DNA of 32,000 bases. Source: Desulfallas sp. Bu1-1. GTDB lineage: Bacteria > Bacillota > Desulfotomaculia > Desulfotomaculales > Desulfallaceae. Every line of letters begins with the position of its first letter. The stretch's first letter is position 1. Where the stretch lies: contig NZ_JADNRQ010000002.1 in assembly GCF_015594625.1 (NCBI RefSeq), forward strand, positions 260,563 through 292,562, in the 5' to 3' direction. A program made the position numbers and the translations under genes. Positions 1 through 13,250 of this stretch are shown here, one piece after another. A model generated the notes under the pieces. That model had not been told where the DNA came from. It was given only the letters and a program-made list of their open reading frames with translations, and did not search any database.

Positions 1-58
1 CGTAAGTTTCAGGCATACCATATTCATTGTTTGGCTGTAGCTTATAAACCATTATTTC
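1..58 (-). pseudogene. 3' fragment of a second Uma2-family (DUF820) endonuclease gene copy; runs off the left edge
   Basis: nt 1-58 match nt 5366-5423, inside the intact Uma2 CDS, at 57/58 positions. The minus-strand translation is [19 protein letters not shown] versus [19 protein letters not shown]. Similarity stops abruptly at nt 58/59. Confidence 0.75.
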
Positions 59-3761: not shown

Positions 3762-3794
3762 AGAAAAAACCCCGCCGGTGCGGGACCGGGGGGC
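3762..3794 (-). terminator. rho-independent terminator after the GGDEF gene
   Basis: The minus strand reads CCCCCCGGTcccgcACCGGCGGGG followed by TTTTTTCTTC. It starts about 10 nt after the stop at 3804. Confidence 0.75.
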
Positions 3795-3803
3795 TCGATA
3801 AGT

Positions 3804-4568
3804 TTAATAAGTTAAGTGCCGGGCACCACTGCTGGACCTGCGGTCTTTTACGTAAACGCTACCCGGCAGGGACTTGGCGTAGCGTTTGAGCTGAGCCGCC
3901 TTTTCCGAAAATTTTTTCTGGTCGTACAGGCAATCGCGGCCAGTGCATTCAACAATGGTCATGGATATAGAAATTAAAGGGAAAAAAGTCTCCCCGCCGC
4001 TCCGGTCGCAGCCGCGTATTCCTCCCGCCGCACGGTCCTCCGAGTCGTAAAAGCGGCGGATCAGCCGGTCGAAATACCGGGCAATTTTTGCGCATAAAAT
4101 CTCTGCCTTTTCCGGAACGGTTATGATGATAAAGTCATCGCCCCCGATGTGGCCGATGAAATCATTTCTGGTGCCGGACTTTTTTACGACGCTGTTCAAG
4201 AGAGTGGCGGTAAACAAAATCACCCGGTCACCGTTTTCAAAGCCATACCTGTCGTTATAAGACTTGAAATGGTCCAGGTCCAGGTAGATCACCGCGCAGT
4301 CCTCATCTTCCCCGGCACGCCTGGACAGTTCCTGCTCGATGGCTATATTTCCCGGCAATCCGGTCAGCGGGTTGGCGCCCCTGGCTATCTCCAGCCGGAT
4401 TTTGGTCATGGTATCAAGTAAAGTCTGGACCGATACAACCCCCTTGAACATCTGATTTCTTGTAACAATGATATAATCGTAGAGCTTGAGCCTGTCCCGG
4501 TTCATGGCAACCTGGGAAACCATTTCAATGGGAGTGTTTTCCTCCACCACCAGGGGGGAAGTGTCCAT
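3804..4568 (-). CDS. CBS-like module plus GGDEF domain protein (motif GGDDF)
   Basis: PLVVEENTPIEMVSQVAMNRD...YDYIIVTRNQMFKGVVSVQTLL is CBS-like. It is followed by NPLTGLPGN, YLDLDHFKSYND and HIGGDDFIII. Confidence 0.8.
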   Translation of the reverse strand: MDTSPLVVEENTPIEMVSQVAMNRDRLKLYDYIIVTRNQMFKGVVSVQTLLDTMTKIRLEIARGANPLTGLPGNIAIEQELSRRAGEDEDCAVIYLDLDHFKSYNDRYGFENGDRVILFTATLLNSVVKKSGTRNDFIGHIGGDDFIIITVPEKAEILCAKIARYFDRLIRRFYDSEDRAAGGIRGCDRSGGETFFPLISISMTIVECTGRDCLYDQKKFSEKAAQLKRYAKSLPGSVYVKDRRSSSGARHLTY

Positions 4569-5297: not shown

Positions 5298-5912
5298 TTA
5301 ATCAAATATATCCCGCAACCTTATAATTAAATCCTCGAAGATCGCCGGCGTAATTTCATTACCTGCGTAAGTTTCAGGCATACCATATTCATTGTTTGAC
5401 TGTAGCTTATAAACCATTATTTCTTTACGAAGATAGTTGGCAATCCAATATTCTTTAACTTGATGCTTTTCGTACAGGTGAAGTTTTTTCACATAGTCCA
5501 TGGATGGTGACGAAGGTGATACTATTTCTATGATCCAATCCGGTGAACCGATACAGTACTTGTCAGTTAGCTTGGACTGATCACATACAACCAATATATC
5601 GGGTTGAACAACCGTTTTAATATCTTTAGCTTCTTCGTTTCTTTCCGGAAGCAGCACATCGTAAGGTGAACCAAATACTTCACAATGTTTGCCTTCCAAG
5701 TAATTTGCAATGCGGACAAGCAATTTACGAGAAACTCTCTGGTGTTGTGTTGAAGGCGATGGTGACATGGCAAGCGTTCCTTCGATAATTTCGTATCTTA
5801 TATCAGCAGGAAGGCTTAAGTAATCTTGATAGCTATATTGTTTTAGTTTGTCTTCAGCTGTGCGTGTCACTTTATAGATGACCCCCTTTTCCAGGTGCCA
5901 GGCACCTGGCAT
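5298..5912 (-). CDS. Uma2-family (DUF820) putative restriction-type endonuclease
   Basis: YEIIEGTLAMSPSPSTQHQRVSRKLL...QPDILVV...SPDWIIEIVSPSS...KLHLYEKHQVKEYWI carries the PD-(D/E)xK-like Uma2 motifs. The start is uncertain: either the ATG at 5912, which lies in a hairpin loop, or the GTG near 5869. Confidence 0.8.
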   Translation of the reverse strand: MPGAWHLEKGVIYKVTRTAEDKLKQYSYQDYLSLPADIRYEIIEGTLAMSPSPSTQHQRVSRKLLVRIANYLEGKHCEVFGSPYDVLLPERNEEAKDIKTVVQPDILVVCDQSKLTDKYCIGSPDWIIEIVSPSSPSMDYVKKLHLYEKHQVKEYWIANYLRKEIMVYKLQSNNEYGMPETYAGNEITPAIFEDLIIRLRDIFD

Positions 5913-5933
5913 CTATTCCCAGGTGCCTGGCAC
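5895..5933. repeat. perfect 14-bp inverted repeat, each arm itself near-palindromic
   Basis: GTGCCAGGCACCTG (5895-5908) and CAGGTGCCTGGCAC (5920-5933) are exact reverse complements, separated by 11 nt. The element sits directly after the stop of the 5935-7119 gene. Confidence 0.85.
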
Positions 5934-5934
5934 G

Positions 5935-7119
5935 TTAAAATACCGGGTAAAGCTCTTTCCACAATACTGTTTTTGTTTTGACGGGTACAGCACCCGCCAT
6001 TGGCATCAGATCTTCTTCATAACACATAGCAAAATCACCTGTACTCTGTTCCCCTTCATCCAGAATTATGCCCCTGGTACAAACGGCCCCGTGCAGCGCG
6101 GCGCCGCCCCGGGCACGCAATTGGCCGTCTGCCAGGATGTTTGCATATACTGTATGATTGTTGATGTTAACATCACCCAGGGCGACGAGAGTCAGGCTTC
6201 CCGCACCAACATCGACATGCTCGCCAACATAGTACTTGGGTTCCAGATCGCCCACCACATTAATGTCCCCGGTGCAAAAAAACAGAGCCGTCCCGCAGTA
6301 ATCCCCCGAGACGGTAATATCACCGTCCACATAATAAAAGCCGTTGTAACCGGCTGCTGCCCTGGCAACTTCGATCACTTCACCGCCGGGCGGATGGGAC
6401 GTCTCAAAAGTCTTATCTGTAAGAAAAACATGCCCGTCCTCCAGGGCCTTTTGCAGGTAATATGCCGTATCCAGTTCCGGAAAAGGGGGTATATAGTTAT
6501 AATTGCTTCGTTTTTGACCATCATGCCTGCCGGTTATTTCTCCGCTGGCGTAAATACTGCCATTAACCTTCAACGTGCCCCCAAGGTTAACATCGCCATC
6601 CATAAAAAGGTTCGCATCAACATTCATTTTCCCAGGAGGATTAAAAATCCTCGGCTTTTCGGGTAAAATGACGAATCCTTTAAAATAATCTTCCGCATTG
6701 TACACGGCAACGACGGATTCCAGTGTCTTTTTAGCCAGCAAATCACCATTGTCACCCGTACATTTTCCAACCGAGTTGATGACCAGGGACGTGCCGATAT
6801 CCTGCCGCTGTTTTAATGCCATAACCTCATAAGTGATATTATCTTTTAGTTCTGTTTCCGGAAAAACCGTAATATTTTTACCCGCCTCAGGTAAATTGTT
6901 GTACCAGCTTATATTTTTTTTAATCCTAGCAATGGTTGTTTCGATACCGGCTTCCGCCGCGTAAAGCGCTTGAACAAACTTTTCTTCGCGCACGATGTTA
7001 TTATGTTTGTGATAAGCAGTTGTACCCAGGGCAACGATAAGCGTAAAAAGCACAGCAGTGACCATAATTACTAAAATTACAGTCTGTCCATCTTTTTTAA
7101 TATAAAAAGACCTTTTCAC
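5935..7119 (-). CDS. PilX-N-like large minor pilin / pilus-associated protein with a beta-helix-like repeat C-terminus
   Basis: N-terminal hydrophobic anchor TVILVIMVTAVLFTLIVALG, then QALYAAEAGIETTIARI (PilX_N-type helix). The C-terminal half has repeated GD(I/V)N/T..G motifs: GDVNLGG, GDITVSGD, GDINVVGD, GDVNINN. Confidence 0.65.
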   Translation of the reverse strand: MKRSFYIKKDGQTVILVIMVTAVLFTLIVALGTTAYHKHNNIVREEKFVQALYAAEAGIETTIARIKKNISWYNNLPEAGKNITVFPETELKDNITYEVMALKQRQDIGTSLVINSVGKCTGDNGDLLAKKTLESVVAVYNAEDYFKGFVILPEKPRIFNPPGKMNVDANLFMDGDVNLGGTLKVNGSIYASGEITGRHDGQKRSNYNYIPPFPELDTAYYLQKALEDGHVFLTDKTFETSHPPGGEVIEVARAAAGYNGFYYVDGDITVSGDYCGTALFFCTGDINVVGDLEPKYYVGEHVDVGAGSLTLVALGDVNINNHTVYANILADGQLRARGGAALHGAVCTRGIILDEGEQSTGDFAMCYEEDLMPMAGAVPVKTKTVLWKELYPVF

Positions 7120-7134
7120 AGACCGCCCCCCGGT

Positions 7135-7626
7135 TTAATTCCTTATCCTGACAGTAGTGCTTACCTCTATTTCCCCGCTACCGTCCTTTTCCCCGACCAG
7201 AGTCAGGGTAACCAACCCGGTGCTTGTACCAGCACCGGCAAGTTCAACCTGAAGCTTTTTGACATACCTGGCTACCGGATTATGGCCATGTCCCCCGATT
7301 GATCGAGTTAACTGTTTAGCCGTCTCGACATCACCGCTGGTACTGATCCGGTAGGTGATTATATCTCCCCGGGTGTTCTTAAATGACAGCCTGCCGCCCC
7401 CGTCCTGCTGATAAGAAACAACAACATCAGCATGGCGAAGTTCCCGGGAAAGCCGGTTTATCCCCAAGCGCAGGTTTTCCTCAACTTCCGCCCGGTCCCT
7501 GTTTTGATGATAGATATGAACACCAAATATAAAAAAATTCTTAACAATGGTTATCACCAGTAAAATTAATAACAGGGATACCACCATTTCCACCAGGGTA
7601 AACCCGCCCCGGTCTTGCAGCATCAA
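7135..7626 (-). CDS. prepilin-type minor pilin (PilW/GspJ-like position)
   Basis: MMLQDRGG/FTLVEMVVSLLLILLVITIV is a class III signal peptide with Glu at +5. Confidence 0.8.
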   Translation of the reverse strand: MMLQDRGGFTLVEMVVSLLLILLVITIVKNFFIFGVHIYHQNRDRAEVEENLRLGINRLSRELRHADVVVSYQQDGGGRLSFKNTRGDIITYRISTSGDVETAKQLTRSIGGHGHNPVARYVKKLQVELAGAGTSTGLVTLTLVGEKDGSGEIEVSTTVRIRN

Positions 7627-7630
7627 TCCA

Positions 7631-8011
7631 TCACCTTTTCGCCCTGGCCCCGGTAATAGTTACTGTTCTTTCCCGGCCGGTTCCCGGCTCGGTGTAATAA
7701 ACAGTGACACAAATATTTTTTAAATAGCCGCTGTAAACGTCATCTTCCCTGACTTCCACGGCATACTGGTAACCGTCGTATGGAGCAGCGAAAATTTTCT
7801 TTTCCTCCGGAGCAATTTCTTCATATTTGTTGCCGGAAACCTCTTCAAATTTACCCTGAGCCAGTTCCAACGCGACAAACCTTTTCCCGGCACCTTCCGA
7901 CTGGCGTGAAACAGCAACCATCGCCATGGTTGCCGGTATAACGCTAATGCCAAAAATTAAAATGGCTACTACAACCTCCATGAAAATAAAGCCGCGTTTA
8001 TCGTTCCACAA
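7631..8011 (-). CDS. prepilin-type minor pilin (PilV/GspI-like)
   Basis: TTG start preceded by GGGAGG. MWNDKRG/FIFMEVVVAILIFGISV is a prepilin motif with Glu at +5. Confidence 0.8.
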   Translation of the reverse strand: MWNDKRGFIFMEVVVAILIFGISVIPATMAMVAVSRQSEGAGKRFVALELAQGKFEEVSGNKYEEIAPEEKKIFAAPYDGYQYAVEVREDDVYSGYLKNICVTVYYTEPGTGRERTVTITGARAKR

Positions 8012-8032: not shown

Positions 8033-8515
8033 TTATTCGTTGCCCTCGGGAGGGTAATCACTGATTCTGGTGCGGCCGGTAACGACAGCAACTATCACGT
8101 ATTGATATTTTCCTGTTTTACGGCTTCGTAAACTGATGTGCCCGCCACTGGTGGGCATACCCTTGGGAGTGAATTTGATGATGTCGTTTTCAAAATTTGT
8201 ATAGACAATATCCACGCCGCCAGGCATGACAACTTCACGGTAAACGCCTGGTTTCGACAGGTCAATCATCCTGTACTTATCATCCCTGACATACAGGTTG
8301 ATCTGGTACGTGGAGGACTCGTCGGCCAGCGCATCCTGCCCCGTGGAGCGTATTTCCTGCTGCAACTGCCGGCAAGCAGCGTCAAGCTGGTAATCGGCCA
8401 GAAAATTATTAAATGAAGGTATGGCTATGGACATAGCGATGGTTAGAATTAAAAGAACAACTATTAACTCAATTAACGTAAATCCTTTACGGTTAAAAAT
8501 ACATGCTCCAATCAC
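8033..8515 (-). CDS. GspH/FimT-like minor pilin
   Basis: NRKG/FTLIELIVVLLILTIAMSIAIPSFNNFLADYQLDAACRQLQQEIR shows the typical FimT/GspH N-terminus. Confidence 0.8.
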   Translation of the reverse strand: MIGACIFNRKGFTLIELIVVLLILTIAMSIAIPSFNNFLADYQLDAACRQLQQEIRSTGQDALADESSTYQINLYVRDDKYRMIDLSKPGVYREVVMPGGVDIVYTNFENDIIKFTPKGMPTSGGHISLRSRKTGKYQYVIVAVVTGRTRISDYPPEGNE

Positions 8516-8595
8516 CTTTGAGTAAATTACATTTTACAGGTGTCTATACCCTTATAACTCTTTTTGCGGCAGCTTCTCTGTATCAGTGGAATTAT

Positions 8596-9105
8596 TTACT
8601 TGTAACGTATCGCCGCGCCGTTATTTACACCGGCAATTGTATCAACTATATTCAGAATCATCACTTCGGATTCAATACCATACTTTTGTTTTACGTCGTT
8701 AATTTTAAAATATAAGATTTTGCCCTCAGCTTTAGGTTGAAAAACTAATTCAAAACCACCGGTGGTGATATGGTTAATAATCTTTGAACCATCTTTATTT
8801 CTAAACTCAATAAAGCCATCATCATTAATAAAAATGTAATTGTCCTGATTAGTTATGGTTTCCGGAATAGCATCATTCTCATCTAAAATTTCCAGCTCAG
8901 CAGCATAGCGAACCTGCCTGGTTATAAAATCCGCTGCCAGTCTTATATCCTGCTGAACATTTGATTGGCTTTCTCCAATTGTGAAAGATGTCGTGCCGAA
9001 GTAAAAAAAAGAATACCCCACCCCCAAAACGACAGCCAAAAGGGCAAGGACAATCAGGAGTTCAACTAAACTAACACCTCGCTTGTCATAAGTTATTTTT
9101 AAAAT
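8596..9105 (-). CDS. prepilin-type minor pilin; no canonical start codon upstream of the prepilin motif
   Basis: The frame is open from 9111. It reads I N I L K I T Y D K R G/V S L V E L L I V L A L L A V V L G, and AAGGAG lies at 9115-9120. Only ATT (9111, 9105) or ATA (9096) codons are available before the Gly. The TTG start at 9039 in the ORF track would delete the prepilin motif. Confidence 0.7.
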   Translation of the reverse strand: MLKITYDKRGVSLVELLIVLALLAVVLGVGYSFFYFGTTSFTIGESQSNVQQDIRLAADFITRQVRYAAELEILDENDAIPETITNQDNYIFINDDGFIEFRNKDGSKIINHITTGGFELVFQPKAEGKILYFKINDVKQKYGIESEVMILNIVDTIAGVNNGAAIRYK

Positions 9106-9131
9106 ATTAATCTACTCCTTCACCGAAATGG

Positions 9132-9476
9132 TTATTGATTGGGTACGAATGAAGTTATGGTTACCGTCCGTTCATTTCCGTTACTGTCAGTGTAAGTTTG
9201 GTCACATATCACAAATTTTCCTGTTACAGTTATAGGATCGGTGAGGGATGGAAAACTTATTGATATTGTGCCATCTGTAACATTATTGCCACTTTTATTA
9301 ATAATTGCATTTTCCATTTCCTTTTGTACCTTATATAGAGCCTCGCTCTTACGCCCGGCGGAAAAAATGCCCGAAAAGCCGGCAGAAAAAAGAGTTGTAA
9401 AAGTAAAAACAATTATTACTAATATAGATATTGCTACAAGGACCTCTAATATCGAAAAACCTTTTTTATTGTTCAT
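9132..9476 (-). CDS. prepilin-type minor pilin
   Basis: MNNKKG/FSILEVLVAISILVIIVF is a class III signal peptide. AGGTGG lies upstream. Confidence 0.85.
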   Translation of the reverse strand: MNNKKGFSILEVLVAISILVIIVFTFTTLFSAGFSGIFSAGRKSEALYKVQKEMENAIINKSGNNVTDGTISISFPSLTDPITVTGKFVICDQTYTDSNGNERTVTITSFVPNQ

Positions 9477-9685
9477 TTAACCACCTGGCCTTCAATTTCC
9501 TTCATAACACTCCATCAGACCACCGGCCCCTTTTGAAACCTATTATAGTTGAAATAATATCAACGTTATTAGGAAGCCTATAAAATATTTTTTAATAAAG
9601 CCTTAATTCCTTGCCCAACTACAAGTTACTCAACACCTGAGCACTGGATTTCATACTAACGACCCCTTACATAATTACAATTTTT

Positions 9686-10810
9686 TTATTCTTCTAGCCA
9701 GGTACCTTTTTCATACGCTAATACTGGGAGGTTTTCCGAACTGTAGTATTTATGTATTATCTCTATGTTCCCCGGTCCTCCACATTTATAATTTTTCGCA
9801 ATAAAGGCACCCACATACGTACCATTTCCGCTAAAATCAATAGTAGCACCGGGGGCATAAATAGCTCCCTCAAATCGAATCTTATCTTCCTTAGATTCAC
9901 CCCCACCTCCCACAAACTTAATTTTACCGCCTTCTTTTACAAAAATGTAAAGCGATGCGTTATCATTTATTTGGAATTCAGCATTACCCTTTAAATCAAG
10001 TGTATCGTTCACAAATAACATCAATCTACCTTTTCCTTCTAGTTTGATTATTCCATTGCCGCTCACGTTAAATGTATCTACCATAATTTTTAAATCATTA
10101 TTATCCATTCTAAAAGTCAGCTCATCATTTCCCTGGAGATTGATCCTGTCATACATGCCATTGCTGCTAATCGGTTTTTCATCAGTATTCTGCTTATTTC
10201 CTTTTCCATTTTCATCAGGTATGGAACCTTTATACTCGAGACCTGTTGGGAATGATGCCGGGGGATAAAACATATTTGAATATGGGTATATTCCATATTT
10301 TTCCCAATCGAATTCAACGTTCTTATTAATCGTGATACCGGCATTGGCTCCCAAATCACCTTCAATACCGGCAGATCCGCTATTGATCACAATGTTATCT
10401 TCACTGCTCGCAGAAAACAAAGCCCATTTTTTAAATATATCCATTCTCTTCAGAGTAAGGGTCACGCTTTGATTGACATCGTTTACTTTGCCTGTGGATT
10501 TAATCGAGATGTTATCTGTATCTCCGGCAACATCCACTTCAAACGTACCCCTGCCAAGACTAGCGGGGTCTGATTTTGGAGCATTGATTAAATCAATTGC
10601 CTCACCGGGATGTTTGATTATCCATTCAGCAATAGCCTCTGCTCCGGACCGAGCAATATAGTAGGCCTGCATTCTTTTCTCATCCCTTGAAACCTGCAAA
10701 GCGTCTGATACGCTGTACTGCAACAGGGTTGTTCCCAGCAACATTAAAACAACCATAATTACAAGAACCAGCGGCACAGCTAATCCTCTTTCATCGATTA
10801 CGATTTTCAT
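9686..10810 (-). CDS. PilX-N-like large minor pilin / pilus-associated protein, low-GC paralog of 5935-7119
   Basis: Hydrophobic N-terminus LAVPLVLVIMVVLMLLGTTLL, then QAYYIARSGAEAIAEWI. The C-terminus is rich in short beta-strand repeats (GNG, GGGG, IDFSGNGTYVG). GGAGGA lies 5 nt upstream of the ATG. Confidence 0.65.
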   Translation of the reverse strand: MKIVIDERGLAVPLVLVIMVVLMLLGTTLLQYSVSDALQVSRDEKRMQAYYIARSGAEAIAEWIIKHPGEAIDLINAPKSDPASLGRGTFEVDVAGDTDNISIKSTGKVNDVNQSVTLTLKRMDIFKKWALFSASSEDNIVINSGSAGIEGDLGANAGITINKNVEFDWEKYGIYPYSNMFYPPASFPTGLEYKGSIPDENGKGNKQNTDEKPISSNGMYDRINLQGNDELTFRMDNNDLKIMVDTFNVSGNGIIKLEGKGRLMLFVNDTLDLKGNAEFQINDNASLYIFVKEGGKIKFVGGGGESKEDKIRFEGAIYAPGATIDFSGNGTYVGAFIAKNYKCGGPGNIEIIHKYYSSENLPVLAYEKGTWLEE

Positions 10811-10915
10811 ATACTTCCTCCAATCGAATGCAGGGAACTATCATCATCCAGTATCCTCAGCTTAGCCTGAACGTTATAATAAAATGCTCCGTAAGGTTTA
10901 ATTATGCCGGCTATG

Positions 10916-11146
10916 TGGTTCGTTTTCCTTATATTTCTCCTACCCGCCGGGCATAACTACATCTTTATATTCCCCGAGCCAGGCCAGGTCAATCACCCGG
11001 CACATGTCCGAGTCGAGACATAAACGGAATTGATAGCCGGCGGATTCCTCAGCCAGCGCATCCTGCCCAAGGAAGCGTATGTCCTGCTACAGTTGCCCGC
11101 AGGCTGAACCAGACGGGTAGTCTAATAAGTAATTATTAAGCGCTGA
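10916..11146 (-). pseudogene. decayed, N-terminally truncated fimT/gspH-like minor pilin gene
   Basis: The minus frame gives SALNNYLLDYPSGSACGQL*QDIRFLGQDALAEESAGYQFRLCLDSDMCRVIDLAWLGEYKDVVMPGG*EKYKENE. This aligns residue for residue with PSFNNFLADYQLDAACRQLQQEIRSTGQDALADESSTYQINLYVRDDKYRMIDLSKPGVYREVVMPGG of the 8033-8515 gene. It has two in-frame stops and no prepilin leader. Similarity is also visible at the nucleotide level. Confidence 0.8.
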
Positions 11147-11148
11147 AT

Positions 11149-12507
11149 TTATTGAATGTGGTTGGAATTTTCCCCGGCCAGCCGCCAGCAGTTTCTGCCT
11201 TCCCGCTTGGCCCTGTAAAGGGCTTGGTCCGCAAGATCGACCAGCTCCGCGGCTTCGCCGGCGTGCGCCGGAAAGCTGGCGCCGCCGAGGCTGATGGTCA
11301 ACCTTCCCCCGGGCTGGCGCTCCCCGTTGGGAAAAGGATATTCCTCCACCGCCCGGCGGGTGTTTTCCATCACTTGCACCAATCCTTCCGGCCCGGTGTT
11401 GGGGAGGATCACCAGGAATTCCTCGCCGCCGTACCTGGCGATGATGTCGGATTGCCTGAGCGTCGCGGCAAGTATTTTTCCGAGGGTTTTCAGCACCATG
11501 TCCCCCGCGGGGTGCCCGTTAGTGTCGTTATAATGTTTGAAGTGATCCACATCCAACATAATTACGGACAGAGGCGACTCGCTGCTGGCAGCGTCCATTA
11601 TTTCCCGTTTCAGGGCGTATTCCATGTACCTCCGGTTATACAAACCCGTAAGAGGATCCCTGCTAACCTCGCTGGCAAGCACGGCCAGCTGTTTTTTGCG
11701 CTTTAATATATTATCGATTTTAAGCAACAACTCCCGGCGATCAACAGGTTTAGTGATAAAATCATCTGCCCCGTGCCGGAGGCTGTTAAGCTTGTCCTCC
11801 TGGTCGTTCAAAGTAGTGATGACGATAACCGGCACCCCGGAAGTAGCCGGCGTCGACTTGATACGGCGGCAGACCTCAAAACCGTCCATGCCGGGCAGGA
11901 CCAGGTCCAGCAGCACCAGGTCGGGAACGTGTTCCAGAGCAAGTTTTAAAGCTTCGTGCCCGTTGGTGGCGGTAATGATATCCATATCCCGGCCTTCCAG
12001 GTACCGCAGCAATACTTTCATCTGTAAGGGACTGTCTTCCACCACGAGAACCAGCGGTTTATCTTTAAGTGACTCAACCGGTTTCTCAGCGCTACTCTCA
12101 GCCCGCTTCCCGCTTGCCATCAGGGAATTTATAGCTTCGGCAAGCTTACCGGGGCAAACGGGTTTGCTGACGGTCTCACCGGCAGACAATGCCTGCAACG
12201 GCGACACCTGACGTAAATCCTTCGCATCTTCGACAGTAATGACTAGGACGGAGGGGGGCGGCGAAGCGTTCTCCACCAGCCGGGCCAACGCTTCCATTTC
12301 CGTCTTGTCGCCGGGTGAATCCACAATCAGTATGTCGGGCGGCGTACAGGCAATTACCCGGGCTAAAGCTGTCAGTTTGCCGGCCACCTGTAGACAAAAC
12401 AAATTGTAGTCCAGGGACCTGGCCACGGTTTCAATAGTGGTGATATCAGAACTGTAGAGAGCAATACACCCGGTCATTTCTTTGATTTCCATACGCTCAC
12501 CATGCAT
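11149..12507 (-). CDS. response regulator diguanylate cyclase (degenerate REC, canonical REC, GGDEF), PleD-like
   Basis: The second REC has VVEDSP, DLVLLDLVLPGMDG, VIVITT and FITKP. The GGDEF domain has DPLTGLYNRR, MLDVDHFKHYND and RQSDIIARYGGEEF, i.e. GGEEF with an RxxD I-site 5 residues upstream. Confidence 0.9.
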   Translation of the reverse strand: MHGERMEIKEMTGCIALYSSDITTIETVARSLDYNLFCLQVAGKLTALARVIACTPPDILIVDSPGDKTEMEALARLVENASPPPSVLVITVEDAKDLRQVSPLQALSAGETVSKPVCPGKLAEAINSLMASGKRAESSAEKPVESLKDKPLVLVVEDSPLQMKVLLRYLEGRDMDIITATNGHEALKLALEHVPDLVLLDLVLPGMDGFEVCRRIKSTPATSGVPVIVITTLNDQEDKLNSLRHGADDFITKPVDRRELLLKIDNILKRKKQLAVLASEVSRDPLTGLYNRRYMEYALKREIMDAASSESPLSVIMLDVDHFKHYNDTNGHPAGDMVLKTLGKILAATLRQSDIIARYGGEEFLVILPNTGPEGLVQVMENTRRAVEEYPFPNGERQPGGRLTISLGGASFPAHAGEAAELVDLADQALYRAKREGRNCWRLAGENSNHIQ

Positions 12508-12558
12508 ATTTCATTATAGGCATACAAAACCCGGTTTGGGGCTTGCTCCGCAAGGACA

Positions 12559-12654
12559 ATCTTTTCCCCGGCATCCTGCGTTAGCCGGGTAGCAGGCGCC
12601 GCGCCCGGTGACGGTCAACCAATCCCCGGGCGCCCACACTGCCGGGGAAAAGAT
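12559..12654. repeat. perfect 15-bp inverted repeat enclosing a GC-rich nested hairpin
   Basis: ATCTTTTCCCCGGCA (12559-12573) and TGCCGGGGAAAAGAT (12640-12654) are exact reverse complements. An inner stem pairs GCGCCCGG (12601-12608) with CCGGGCGC (12626-12633). The element lies in the pilA to response-regulator intergenic region. Confidence 0.85.
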
Positions 12655-12851
12655 GCAATGTAGAAGGGGGAGTACGAATGTACATATGCACCGTACTCCC
12701 TCGAAAAAAAGACACAACATTCCAAATGCGATCCATAGCAACGTAAGCTTGTAACTTCCTCTAACAATAAGTTAACAAAGCACCGTAGCTTGTAGCTTGT
12801 TCTGGCATTTTAGTTTGTTTTTGCGACAACCAAGAACCGTCCCCTGTCGCA

Positions 12852-13250
12852 TTATACCCCTTGGGGGACATAGTGATTTGTCCAATCACCTACTGGACCA
12901 ATGGTAGGCCGGTCCCCATCATCTGAAGTATTTAATTCATAGTTTCCCTCACCGGCACCTTCTAACCCACAACCTTCAGGTATTACCATAGATGAAGCAC
13001 CCTGTACATAATCATCAAGATCACTTAGGTCATCTGGCCATTCGCCTTCTACTGCTCTATATTGGTCTATTGCTCCATCAAGTATGCGCAAATTAGCATC
13101 ATGTGCCCTCTGTGCAGCCCCTCTGGTAGTACTATTATAAATCGGCACCGCAATCGCAACCAAAATACCAATGATAACCACAACCACCATCAGTTCCACC
13201 AAAGTAAAGCCCTTCTGGTTCTTCATCTGGCGGCACAGTTTGTAAAACAT
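12852..13250 (-). CDS. pilA: type IV major pilin
   Basis: MFYKLCRQMKNQKG/FTLVELMVVVVIIGILVAIAVPIY is a canonical prepilin motif. A strong RBS, GGAAAGGAGGTG, lies 8 nt upstream. Confidence 0.9.
   Translation of the reverse strand: MFYKLCRQMKNQKGFTLVELMVVVVIIGILVAIAVPIYNSTTRGAAQRAHDANLRILDGAIDQYRAVEGEWPDDLSDLDDYVQGASSMVIPEGCGLEGAGEGNYELNTSDDGDRPTIGPVGDWTNHYVPQGV

What the first reader, a model, noticed from the sequence alone, without database searches (positions are those of the whole stretch)
8033..11146. Low-GC minor-pilin cassette lying between an intact and a decayed fimT/gspH-like gene
The locus holds two minor-pilin sets. Set B (8033-8515 FimT-like, 7631-8011, 7135-7626, 5935-7119 PilX-like) looks complete. 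Set A (9686-10810 PilX-like, 9132-9476, 8596-9105) is visibly more AT-rich; my hand counts on sample lines give roughly 35-42 percent GC against about 50-55 percent in pilT and pilC. Set A lies between the intact FimT-like gene (directly downstream of it) and a pseudogenised FimT-like paralog (10916-11146, directly upstream), both in the same orientation. The paralog has two in-frame stops and has lost its prepilin leader exactly where the response-regulator gene ends. This pattern fits cassette acquisition or exchange by recombination between fimT-like genes. It would leave the cell with two alternative tip or priming complexes.
Basis: partly seen in the sequence, partly recalled or inferred. 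Interest (0 to 1): 0.62.

Follow-up and report, generated by a model that had tools for sequence, protein, structure and literature searches.

The report
Variable tip-pilin cassette beside recombination scar
An uncultured Desulfotomaculum-like bacterium has two sets of pilus-tip (minor pilin) genes in one pilus operon: the AT-rich set is a fast-changing cassette found in all its relatives, and the broken fimT copy next to it looks like a scar of past recombination, so this is an instructive but fairly ordinary example of how pilus loci evolve.

Summary
Set A (8596-10810) has 37.7% GC against 51.1% for the genome, which puts it in the 1st percentile. Its GC3 is 29-36%. A fimT-like remnant lies at 10943-11143. 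It corresponds to residues 34-100 of the intact gene, is 54% identical to it, and carries two TAG stops.

Both modules (X-V-W and FimT-V-W-X) are old parts of this family's pilus locus, and the X-V-W module is AT-rich in every relative examined. Low GC therefore does not show recent foreign origin. In the nearest intact relative (contig L198), set A sits in the same slot between the regulator gene and fimT. Its proteins there are only 31-47% identical, while the flanking proteins are 67-76% identical, and the X-A tree conflicts with the X-B tree. This fits cassette turnover.

The remnant travels with the regulator gene. Genome G001 has an orthologous pseudogene right after its own regulator gene. 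That block shows half the synonymous divergence of the flanking genes. A strain with a 96% identical regulator gene lacks 8530-11145 entirely.

The remnant is best read as a recombination scar, not as a flanking repeat that mediated acquisition of set A. Known parallels exist, for example the multiple minor-pilin sets of Myxococcus. Interest is modest. Two unchecked notes of this scan report low-GC minor-pilin regions in other genomes.

The parts
11149..12507 (-). Response-regulator diguanylate cyclase (RR-GGDEF). It is the conserved left anchor of the variable region.
   Evidence: Pfam Response_reg + GGDEF. Orthologs: 95% aa in S2, 83% in G001, 72% in L198.
10943..11143 (-). psi-fimT', a decayed FimT/GspH-like paralog. 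It covers residues 34-100 only, with TAG stops at 11087-11089 and 10940-10942.
   Evidence: tblastn E 3e-22, 54% identity to the intact FimT. It is 82% nt identical to the pseudogene that follows the RR gene in G001/L030. It groups with that pseudogene at 99/96 support.
10811..10942 (-). Unassigned spacer between the remnant and X-A. It holds the X-A ribosome-binding site (GGAGG, 10820-10824).
   Evidence: No significant similarity to the FimT C-terminus (p 0.65) or to the L030 spacer (p 0.32).
9686..10810 (-). X-A, the large K-type minor pilin of set A. It has an N-terminal pilin helix plus a beta-solenoid and no Glu5.
   Evidence: DUF7305, 66.8 bits. AF2 pLDDT 83, pTM 0.75. Best fold match is the ComZ pilin 6QVI, E 1e-7, followed by ice-binding-like folds. 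Best database homolog is only 35% identical.
9132..9476 (-). V-A, the small I-type (ComGE-like) minor pilin of set A.
   Evidence: N_methyl. ComGE model E 1.2e-7, below the curated cutoff. 29% identical to V-B, sharing the C-terminal ERTVTIT motif.
8596..9105 (-). W-A, the J-type minor pilin of set A. The probable start is ATT at 9105, after AAGGAG at 9115-9120.
   Evidence: N_methyl when read from 9105. There is no ATG/GTG/TTG before the leader. The same pattern of SD + 9 nt + ATT occurs in G002, G007 and G009.
8530..11145 (-). Segment absent from the related strain S2. It comprises the remnant, set A and most of the spacer.
   Evidence: read laying joint 8515->11149 in two runs. The same junction appears in contigs L192-L194, where the two alignments overlap by 6 nt (TAAATT/TAATTT).
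8033..8515 (-). Intact FimT/GspH/ComGD-like minor pilin. It is the only H-type pilin in the locus.
   Evidence: N_methyl. ComGD E 2.6e-12 and GspH E 7.7e-9, both below the curated cutoffs. 75% identical to L198's FimT.
5935..8011 (-). Set B: V-B (7631-8011), W-B (7135-7626) and X-B (5935-7119).
   Evidence: N_methyl in V-B and W-B. 72/76/67% identical to L198. X-B is sister to L198's X-B at 98/99 support.
5895..5933 (.). Pair of REP-like palindromes (GTGCCWGGCAC) directly after the X-B stop, marking the end of the pilus genes.
   Evidence: The core is enriched about 10-fold in the genome. The same element flanks a Y1_Tnp gene in G002.

Best explanation
**What the stretch is.** The stretch lies inside one long type IV pilus operon of an uncultured Desulfotomaculum-like Firmicute. 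The family's pilus locus normally carries two minor-pilin modules.
- Module A is X-V-W: a K-like large pilin with a ComZ-like beta-solenoid, plus I-like and J-like pilins.
- Module B is FimT-V-W-X, a full H-I-J-K-type quartet.

**Module A is an old, fast-changing cassette.**
- It is AT-rich in every lineage examined.
- Its pilins carry different add-on domains in different relatives.
- It sits in the same slot in the nearest intact relative (RR | A | fimT-B | tldD).
- Its sequences there are far more diverged than the flanks, and the X-A tree is incongruent with the X-B tree.
- I infer that the slot is refreshed by recombination or diversifying change.

**The decayed fimT' copy is a scar.**
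- It is the 3' tail of a 1.57-kb RR-fimT' block that this genome shares with genome G001.
- I read it as the scar of a recombination event whose right end fell at about codon 100-107 of fimT'.
- A later deletion of about 113 nt removed its leader.

**How it probably works (inferred).** Both I-J-K trimers use the single intact FimT as the adaptor to the one major pilin. This gives pili with alternative adhesive tips.
For: **Both modules are conserved in relatives.** G009, G010, G011, G007, G002, L198 and L200 all carry them.

**Module A is AT-rich everywhere.** It is 33-39% GC in relatives against 44-58% in the flanks. In L198 it is 35-45% against 52-60%.

**Same slot, uneven divergence in L198.**
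- Gene order is RR, then 25 nt, then X-V-W, fimT, V-W-X, tldD.
- Identities are X-A/V-A/W-A 31/38/47% against RR 72%, FimT 75%, V-B 72%, W-B 76%, X-B 67%.

**Tree conflict.**
- X-B of G000 and L198 are sisters at 98/99 support.
- The AU test rejects X-A of G000 and L198 as a clade: p 0.0004 for the pair, p 0.02 when P0002 is included.

**The remnant belongs with the RR gene.**
- G001/L030 has RR, then psi-fimT' (codons 1-107, with the leader kept but frameshifted), then tldD. That pseudogene is 82% nt identical to the window's remnant.
- The two pseudogenes group at 99/96 support, as sister to (G000 intact FimT, L198 FimT).
- Four-fold-site divergence between G000 and G001 is 0.25 for RR but 0.48-0.54 for tldD, the prepilin peptidase (pepA24, in the first comparison labelled p272) and pmbA.
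- Between G000 and L198 the contrast is reversed: RR 0.39 against tldD 0.27 (Fisher p 0.006 and 4e-6).

**Variable presence.** Strain S2 lacks 8530-11145.

**X-A fold.** Pilin helix plus beta-solenoid, closest to ComZ.

**One FimT per locus.** Only one strong FimT match is found per related genome.
Against: - RR trees do not prove the mosaic. ML topology is ((G000,S2),L198),G001 at 88/92 support, and the alternative topology is not rejected (AU p 0.135). L198's RR gene simply has a long branch.
- X-A is so diverged that rapid vertical change and long-branch effects could mimic replacement. The clades tested were named after the tree had been seen.
- No donor for set A was found. The best hit among 5.8 billion proteins is 35% identical.
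- The direction of the RR-fimT' transfer is unknown. An old duplication with differential loss would give the same fimT tree.
- All close relatives are short metagenome contigs, so no same-genus genome is available.
- Sharing of FimT by two tip complexes is inference only. There are no expression data.
- W-A lacks a canonical start codon and could be inactive.
Confidence: 0.6

Rival explanations
1. Set A is a recently acquired foreign AT-rich cassette that was inserted or exchanged by recombination between the two fimT-like genes flanking it.
For: - Composition is strongly atypical.
- The segment 8530-11145 is missing in a very close strain.
- fimT fragments abut X-V-W modules in two lineages: upstream of the module in G000, and a 3' fragment after W-A in G002.
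Against: - The module is conserved and AT-rich in all relatives.
- L198 has set A in the same slot with no fimT remnant.
- The remnant has 54% GC and is orthologous to G001's RR-linked pseudogene.
- The two fimT copies are only 71% nt identical, which makes them poor substrates for homologous exchange.
- No donor was found.
Confidence: 0.15
2. An old tandem duplication of a four-gene minor-pilin operon. On this reading fimT' was set A's own H-type gene and is now decaying because the intact fimT downstream makes it redundant.
For: - fimT' lies directly upstream of X-A on the same strand.
- The pseudogene clade is sister to (G000 FimT, L198 FimT), as expected for a duplication before their split.
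- Divergence between the G000 and G001 pseudogenes is lower at codon positions 1 and 2 than at position 3 (0.11, 0.15, 0.23). This hints at past purifying selection.
Against: - No relative has a FimT gene in front of its X-V-W module.
- Gene order differs between the sets: X-V-W against T-V-W-X.
- In G001 the pseudogene follows the RR gene with no set A behind it.
- The model requires loss of fimT' in L198 and loss of everything else in G001.
Confidence: 0.15
3. Set A is a decaying, non-functional leftover. Its low GC and high divergence would then reflect relaxed selection, not a variable adhesin role.
For: - W-A has no canonical start in G000, and G002 has a stop before the W-A leader.
- Strain S2 and genome G001 have lost the module at this site.
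Against: - X-A and V-A are intact ORFs with good ribosome-binding sites.
- X-A folds confidently, pLDDT 83.
- The module is retained across at least seven lineages.
- A conserved pattern of SD + 9 nt + ATT suggests a real non-canonical start for W-A.
Confidence: 0.1

Closest known systems
Myxococcus xanthus minor-pilin/PilY1 clusters 1-3 (Treuner-Lange et al. 2020, PMC7541494)
   Same: Several minor-pilin sets serve one major pilin and one pilus machine. Either of two clusters alone suffices for pili, and the complex primes assembly and sits at the tip.
   Different: - Each Myxococcus cluster has its own FimU and a PilY1. Here set A has no intact H-type gene and there is no PilY1.
- The large X pilins here carry a beta-solenoid.
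- The two sets here are adjacent in one operon of a Firmicute.
- No functional data exist for this locus.
ComGD/ComGE/ComGF/ComGG of Gram-positive competence pili (Oliveira et al. 2021, PMC8727766)
   Same: - It is a four-member minor-pilin set in a monoderm.
- The largest member (ComGG) lacks Glu5, as X-A and X-B do.
- FimT, V-A and W-B give their best NCBIfam matches to ComGD, ComGE and ComGF.
   Different: - All these matches are below the curated cutoffs: 47 against 70, 32 against 49, and 39 against 80 bits.
- The locus has pilT and pilMNO, so it is a type IVa-like pilus and not a Com pilus.
- X-A and X-B are about three times larger than ComGG (from my own knowledge).
ComZ competence-associated pilin of Thermus thermophilus (PDB 6QVI)
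   Same: It is the best structural match to the X-A model (Foldseek E 1e-7): a pilin with a large beta-solenoid domain.
   Different: - TM-scores are only 0.22-0.29 and sequence identity is 9-10%.
- ComZ belongs to a diderm and is described as a tip DNA receptor (from my own knowledge). No DNA-binding evidence exists here.
T2SS GspH-GspI-GspJ-GspK pseudopilus tip and Pseudomonas FimU-PilVWX (established knowledge, not retrieved here)
   Same: The size and order logic is the same: small I, medium J, large K without Glu5, and H as a linker to the major subunit.
   Different: - Homology is only at the level of the N-terminal motif.
- The GspH model scores 35.8 bits against a cutoff of 80.
- No structure of these complexes was computed.
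Pilin and minor-pilin allele islands of Pseudomonas aeruginosa (established knowledge, not retrieved here)
   Same: Low-GC, recombination-prone pilus subunit genes sit in a conserved chromosomal slot, with alleles that do not follow the strain phylogeny.
   Different: The taxon differs. Here only one of the two minor-pilin modules is hypervariable. No tRNA or integrase lies at the borders.

Membership tests
Type IV pilin-like proteins (class III signal peptide) | N-terminal G|(F/x)xxxE motif followed by a hydrophobic helix (PF07963/TIGR02532) | tested here: met
   FimT, V-B, W-B, V-A and W-A (read from ATT 9105) hit PF07963 at or near the cutoff. X-A and X-B have the hydrophobic helix but no Glu5 and give no PF07963 hit.
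GspH/FimT/FimU/ComGD (H-type minor pilin) | Score above the curated cutoff of TIGR01708 (GspH) or NF040982 (ComGD) | tested here: not met
   ComGD 47.3 bits against 70 and GspH 35.8 against 80. These are the best matches and cover the full length for ComGD, so the gene is 'H-like' by resemblance only.
DUF7305 (PF23981) large pilus-associated beta-helix proteins | Pfam gathering score | tested here: met
   X-A scores 66.8 bits against a cutoff of 27. X-A-type proteins of L198 and L200 carry it as well. X-B does not reach it.
Horizontally acquired genomic island | Atypical composition | tested here: met
   1st percentile for GC and 0.6-2.4th percentile for GC3. However, the same bias is present in all relatives' copies, so the feature is not diagnostic here.
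Horizontally acquired genomic island | Variable presence among close relatives | tested here: met
   S2 (RR 96.4% nt identical) lacks 8530-11145. G001 lacks all minor pilins at this site. L198 has the module.
Horizontally acquired genomic island | Mobility genes, a tRNA or direct repeats at the borders | tested here: not met
   No integrase, transposase or tRNA lies at 8516-8595 or 10811-11148. There is only a 6-nt imperfect microhomology. REP-like elements lie at other borders: 3816, 5895 and 5923.
Horizontally acquired genomic island | Phylogeny incongruent with the flanking genes | tested here: inconclusive
   The AU test rejects the (G000, L198) X-A clade at p 0.0004 and 0.02. Against this, branches are long, the tree is star-like and the groups were named post hoc.
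Multiple alternative minor-pilin tip sets (Myxococcus type) | Each set can prime pilus assembly with the same major pilin | not testable with these tools
   This needs genetics or proteomics. Only gene content was shown here.

The most novel reading that the evidence does not exclude
Desulfotomaculum-like Firmicutes keep a dedicated hypervariable slot in their pilus operon. An AT-rich K-I-J cassette with a ComZ-like beta-solenoid tip pilin and swappable Ig-like add-ons is exchanged between lineages. A second, stable H-I-J-K set supplies the single shared FimT adaptor. This would be a built-in system for changing pilus tip specificity. REP/RAYT elements and the c-di-GMP regulator block would mark the recombination joints.
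Probability: 0.25. Interest if true: 0.55.

Novelty: new member of a known kind. Interest (0 to 1): 0.36.

Why it matters
Pilus tips decide what a cell sticks to, takes up, or is attacked through. A conserved locus design with one stable tip set and one fast-changing tip set would explain how subsurface Firmicutes vary surface specificity without touching the pilus machine. It also gives a concrete case of mosaic evolution inside an operon. The case is a caution as well: low GC in pilus subunit genes is a standing property of the module in this family and not proof of recent import. Because multiple minor-pilin sets and recombining pilin loci are already known, the gain is incremental.

Tried and rejected
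- **FimT homology beyond codon 100.** Window 10811-10942 was compared with the FimT C-terminus in three frames (p 0.36-0.65) and with the L030 spacer (p 0.32). Neither was significant.
- **Relic of an RR 3' end upstream of the intact fimT.** Not significant, p 0.38.
- **Shared sequence upstream of tldD.** Homology between G000 and L030 starts only at the tldD start codon.
- **RR gene trees as proof of mosaicism.** Protein, DNA and third-position trees left the topology unresolved, AU p 0.135.
- **Exact-protein look-up of the RR gene.** Not on record.
- **Desulfoscipio geothermicus RR locus** (56% identical). It has no similar pilin genes nearby.
- **RR homologs at 58-60% identity** (L201-L204). 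They lie outside pilus loci and are not informative.
- **Promoter and terminator scan.** Counts were at the chance level, and no intergenic terminator was found on the minus strand within 8500-11150.
- **Sequencing runs.** No RNA holder was listed. Runs X3, X4 and X5 hold only small shares of the stretch.
- **Same-genus comparison.** G000 has no same-genus genome among the species representatives, so no whole-genome close comparison was possible.
Full report
**1. What is in the sequence**

On the minus strand the window reads, in transcription order:
- pilA (12852-13250)
- an RR-GGDEF diguanylate cyclase (11149-12507)
- a fimT-like remnant
- X-A (9686-10810), V-A (9132-9476) and W-A (8596-9105)
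- an intact FimT-like gene (8033-8515)
- V-B (7631-8011), W-B (7135-7626) and X-B (5935-7119)
- Uma2 (5298-5912)

FimT, V-B, W-B, V-A and W-A carry the prepilin methylation motif, and X-A carries DUF7305. The best NCBIfam matches are ComGD/GspH for FimT, ComGE for V-A and ComGF for W-B. All three fall below the curated cutoffs. The A and B proteins are distant paralogs: X 25-36% over the N-terminal part, W 29%, and V 29% with a shared C-terminal motif.

**2. Composition**

| Region | GC |
|---|---|
| Genome | 51.1% |
| Set A | 37.7% |
| Set B | 46.7% |
| RR-GGDEF | 55.3% |
| Remnant core | 54.2% |

The 2.3-kb block 8516-10810 lies at the 1.0th percentile of all genome windows of that size. GC3 is 29-36% for the set A genes, which is the 0.6-2.4th percentile of 1846 long ORFs. 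It is 46-53% for set B. pilA (37%) and Uma2 (36%) are also low.

**3. The remnant**

- tblastn of FimT against 10700-11300 aligns residues 34-100 at 54% identity (E 3e-22). DNA identity is 71%.
- There is one internal TAG (11087-11089) and a TAG right after the MPGG motif (10940-10942).
- The 33 leader codons are missing. The remnant starts 5 nt after the RR stop codon.
- The C-terminal third is also gone. I could not show homology in 10811-10942.

**4. Both modules are old and the A module is AT-rich everywhere**

G000 is the only member of its genus among the species representatives. Relatives in the same family carry both an X-V-W module and a FimT-V-W-X module.

| Genome or contig | Gene order |
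|---|---|
| G011 and L200 | pilA, set A, RR, accessory genes, fimT-V-W-X, tldD, prepilin peptidase |
| G009 and G010 | set A a few kb after pilA; set B elsewhere |
| G007 and G002 | set A just upstream of fimT |

- The X-V-W module has no FimT gene of its own in any of these genomes. Each genome gives one strong FimT match.
- The X-V-W module is the AT-richest part of every locus, at 33-39% GC against 44-58% around it.
- Low GC is therefore a standing property of the module and not a mark of recent arrival.
- Set A pilins carry different add-on domains in different relatives:
  - He_PIG on V-A in L198
  - Big_5 on W-A in L200
  - a V-A type ORF of 420 aa in G011, a W-A type ORF of 388 aa in G009, and X-A type ORFs of 686 and 691 aa in G002 and G007

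**5. The nearest intact relative**

Contig L198 (RR 72% identical) reads RR, 25 nt, X-A type (473 aa, DUF7305), V-A type, W-A type, fimT, V, W, X, tldD, prepilin peptidase. This is the window's order, but without the remnant and without the extra genes before tldD.

| Protein | Identity G000 vs L198 |
|---|---|
| FimT | 75% |
| V-B | 72% |
| W-B | 76% |
| X-B | 67% |
| X-A | 31% |
| V-A | 38% |
| W-A | 47% (partial) |

Set A in L198 is again low in GC, at 35-45% against 52-60%.

In a joint tree the X-B proteins of G000 and L198 are sisters (98/99 support), while the X-A clade is a star with long branches. The AU test rejects (G000, L198) X-A as a clade, at p 0.0004 for the pair and p 0.02 with P0002 added. 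This favours cassette replacement over purely vertical change. Caveats are the long branches and the fact that I named the groups after seeing the tree. No donor exists in the databases; the best hit is 35% identical.

**6. The remnant belongs to the RR gene**

- Genome G001 is the closest species representative. Its contigs are L030/L110 and the longer L195.
- G001 has RR (83% aa, 86% nt identical) followed after 16 nt by a fimT' pseudogene. This pseudogene keeps a frameshifted leader and runs to about codon 107.
- After 83 nt comes tldD.
- Its nucleotides 2561-2756 match window 11141-10943 at 82%.
- Comparison with G001 shows that the window has lost about 113 nt, from the start of the spacer to codon 33.
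- In G000, tldD lies just left of the window (C60:258985-260388). The variable region between the RR stop and the tldD start is therefore 11.3 kb in G000, 5.4 kb in L198 and 0.45 kb in G001.
- In a FimT tree the two pseudogenes group together (99/96). They are sister to (G000 intact FimT, L198 FimT).

**7. Mosaic signal**

| Gene | Four-fold-site divergence, G000 vs G001 | G000 vs L198 |
|---|---|---|
| RR | 0.25 | 0.39 |
| tldD | 0.48 | 0.27 |
| Prepilin peptidase (pepA24; labelled p272) | 0.54 | 0.31 |
| pmbA | 0.48 | not measured |

The contrasts are significant (Fisher p 0.006 and 4e-6). RR-fimT' thus looks more recently shared with the G001 lineage than the flanks are, while the right flank is L198-like.

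Gene trees do not settle it. RR trees give ((G000,S2),L198),G001 at 88/92 support, L198 has a long branch, and the alternative topology is not rejected (AU p 0.135). The pseudogenes differ by 16%, less than the RR four-fold divergence, and with fewer changes at codon positions 1 and 2 than at position 3. They were probably still functional for part of that time.

**8. Variable presence in a close strain**

Metagenome runs X2 and X4 hold a contig that joins 11149 to 8515 with 9 nt between. The same structure is in contigs L192-L194, whose RR gene is 96.4% nt identical to the window's, with four-fold divergence 0.028. In these contigs:
- The RR stop is followed by a 58-nt stretch that is 88% identical to 8529-8472. 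This is the spacer plus the first 44 nt of the intact-type fimT, now carrying a stop.
- A REP-like element and unrelated genes come next.
- The two alignments overlap by 6 nt (TAAATT/TAATTT).

That strain therefore lacks 8530-11145 and also lacks set B. Its upstream pilMNO genes are of the G001 type. The RR block thus sits in different pilus backgrounds in different strains. Run X1 carries the window's own arrangement at about 99% identity.

**9. Reading**

Shown:
- two conserved modules
- a standing AT bias of module A
- slot conservation with excess divergence of module A
- an RR-linked orthologous pseudogene in G001
- presence/absence polymorphism of the segment

Inferred:
- The slot undergoes cassette turnover.
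- The remnant marks the right end of a recombination event that involved the RR-fimT' block. Both truncations, at codon 100 in G000 and codon 107 in G001, fall at or just after a GC-rich hairpin-like motif that the terminator scan flags in the intact gene (8212-8229). This link is speculative.

An old duplication with differential loss remains possible.

**10. Likely function**

The AF2 model of X-A (pLDDT 83, pTM 0.75) has a long N-terminal helix, a small beta domain and a beta-solenoid. The best PDB match is the Thermus pilin ComZ (E 1e-7, low TM-score). Ice-binding-like folds follow, and tapirins appear weakly.

By size, order and absence of Glu5, X/V/W correspond to K/I/J-type tip pilins and FimT to the H-type linker. 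Since relatives keep two I-J-K sets but one FimT, I propose that both trimers use the same FimT and the same major pilin, giving alternative tips. Myxococcus shows that several minor-pilin sets can serve one machine (PMC7541494). ComGG shows the role of a Glu5-less member in a monoderm (PMC8727766). None of this was tested here.

**11. Verdict**

This is a new example of a known kind of locus behaviour, in an unstudied group.

Noticed in passing
window 9096-9120; L026:10020-10110; L027:8440-8540; L024:7150-7260: W-A has no ATG/GTG/TTG before its prepilin leader. A strong Shine-Dalgarno site lies exactly 9 nt before an ATT codon in G000. The same pattern occurs in the W-A homologs of G002, G007 and G009. 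This suggests a conserved ATT start, or else recurrent 5' decay.
   Followed up: partly
window 3798-3827, 5895-5933; L193:1886-1914 and 3780-3808; L198:1-29; L199:7750; L026:11872 and 12817: A REP-like element has the core GGTGCCWGGCAC, often followed by AACTTATTAACTTAT. The core occurs 39 times in the genome against about 4 expected. In G002 inverted copies flank a Y1_Tnp (IS200/RAYT-like) gene. Elsewhere the element sits at borders of pilus modules and at the S2 deletion joint.
   Followed up: partly
window 1-58 (reaching 67 nt left of the window) and 5298-5423: A 126-nt direct repeat (96% identical) of the Uma2 3' end brackets about 5.3 kb of accessory genes that are absent from L198. These genes are a PIN toxin with a Phd/YefM antitoxin, two bPH_5 proteins, a partial GGDEF protein and an ABC ATPase fragment.
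   Followed up: partly
L026:10590-10682 (G002): A fragment of the last 30 or so codons of a fimT gene abuts the W-A stop in G002. This is a second, independent case of a fimT piece at the edge of an X-V-W module.
   Followed up: partly
window 12528-12778: The region upstream of the RR gene resembles the 3' end of a GGDEF gene (about 72% to 11173-11335). In strain S2 this region is present both upstream and downstream of the RR gene, so the RR gene may move as a unit.
   Followed up: no
L195:971-6820 (G001 lineage): G001 carries four tandem major-pilin-like genes plus a V-W-X-FimT set upstream of pilMNO. This is a different pilus-locus layout. Strain S2 shares it, although its RR gene is 96% identical to the window's.
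   Followed up: no
window 12852-13250: The major pilin gene pilA is also low in GC3 (37%, 2.8th percentile). AT bias therefore affects several surface-exposed pilus subunit genes and not only set A.
   Followed up: partly
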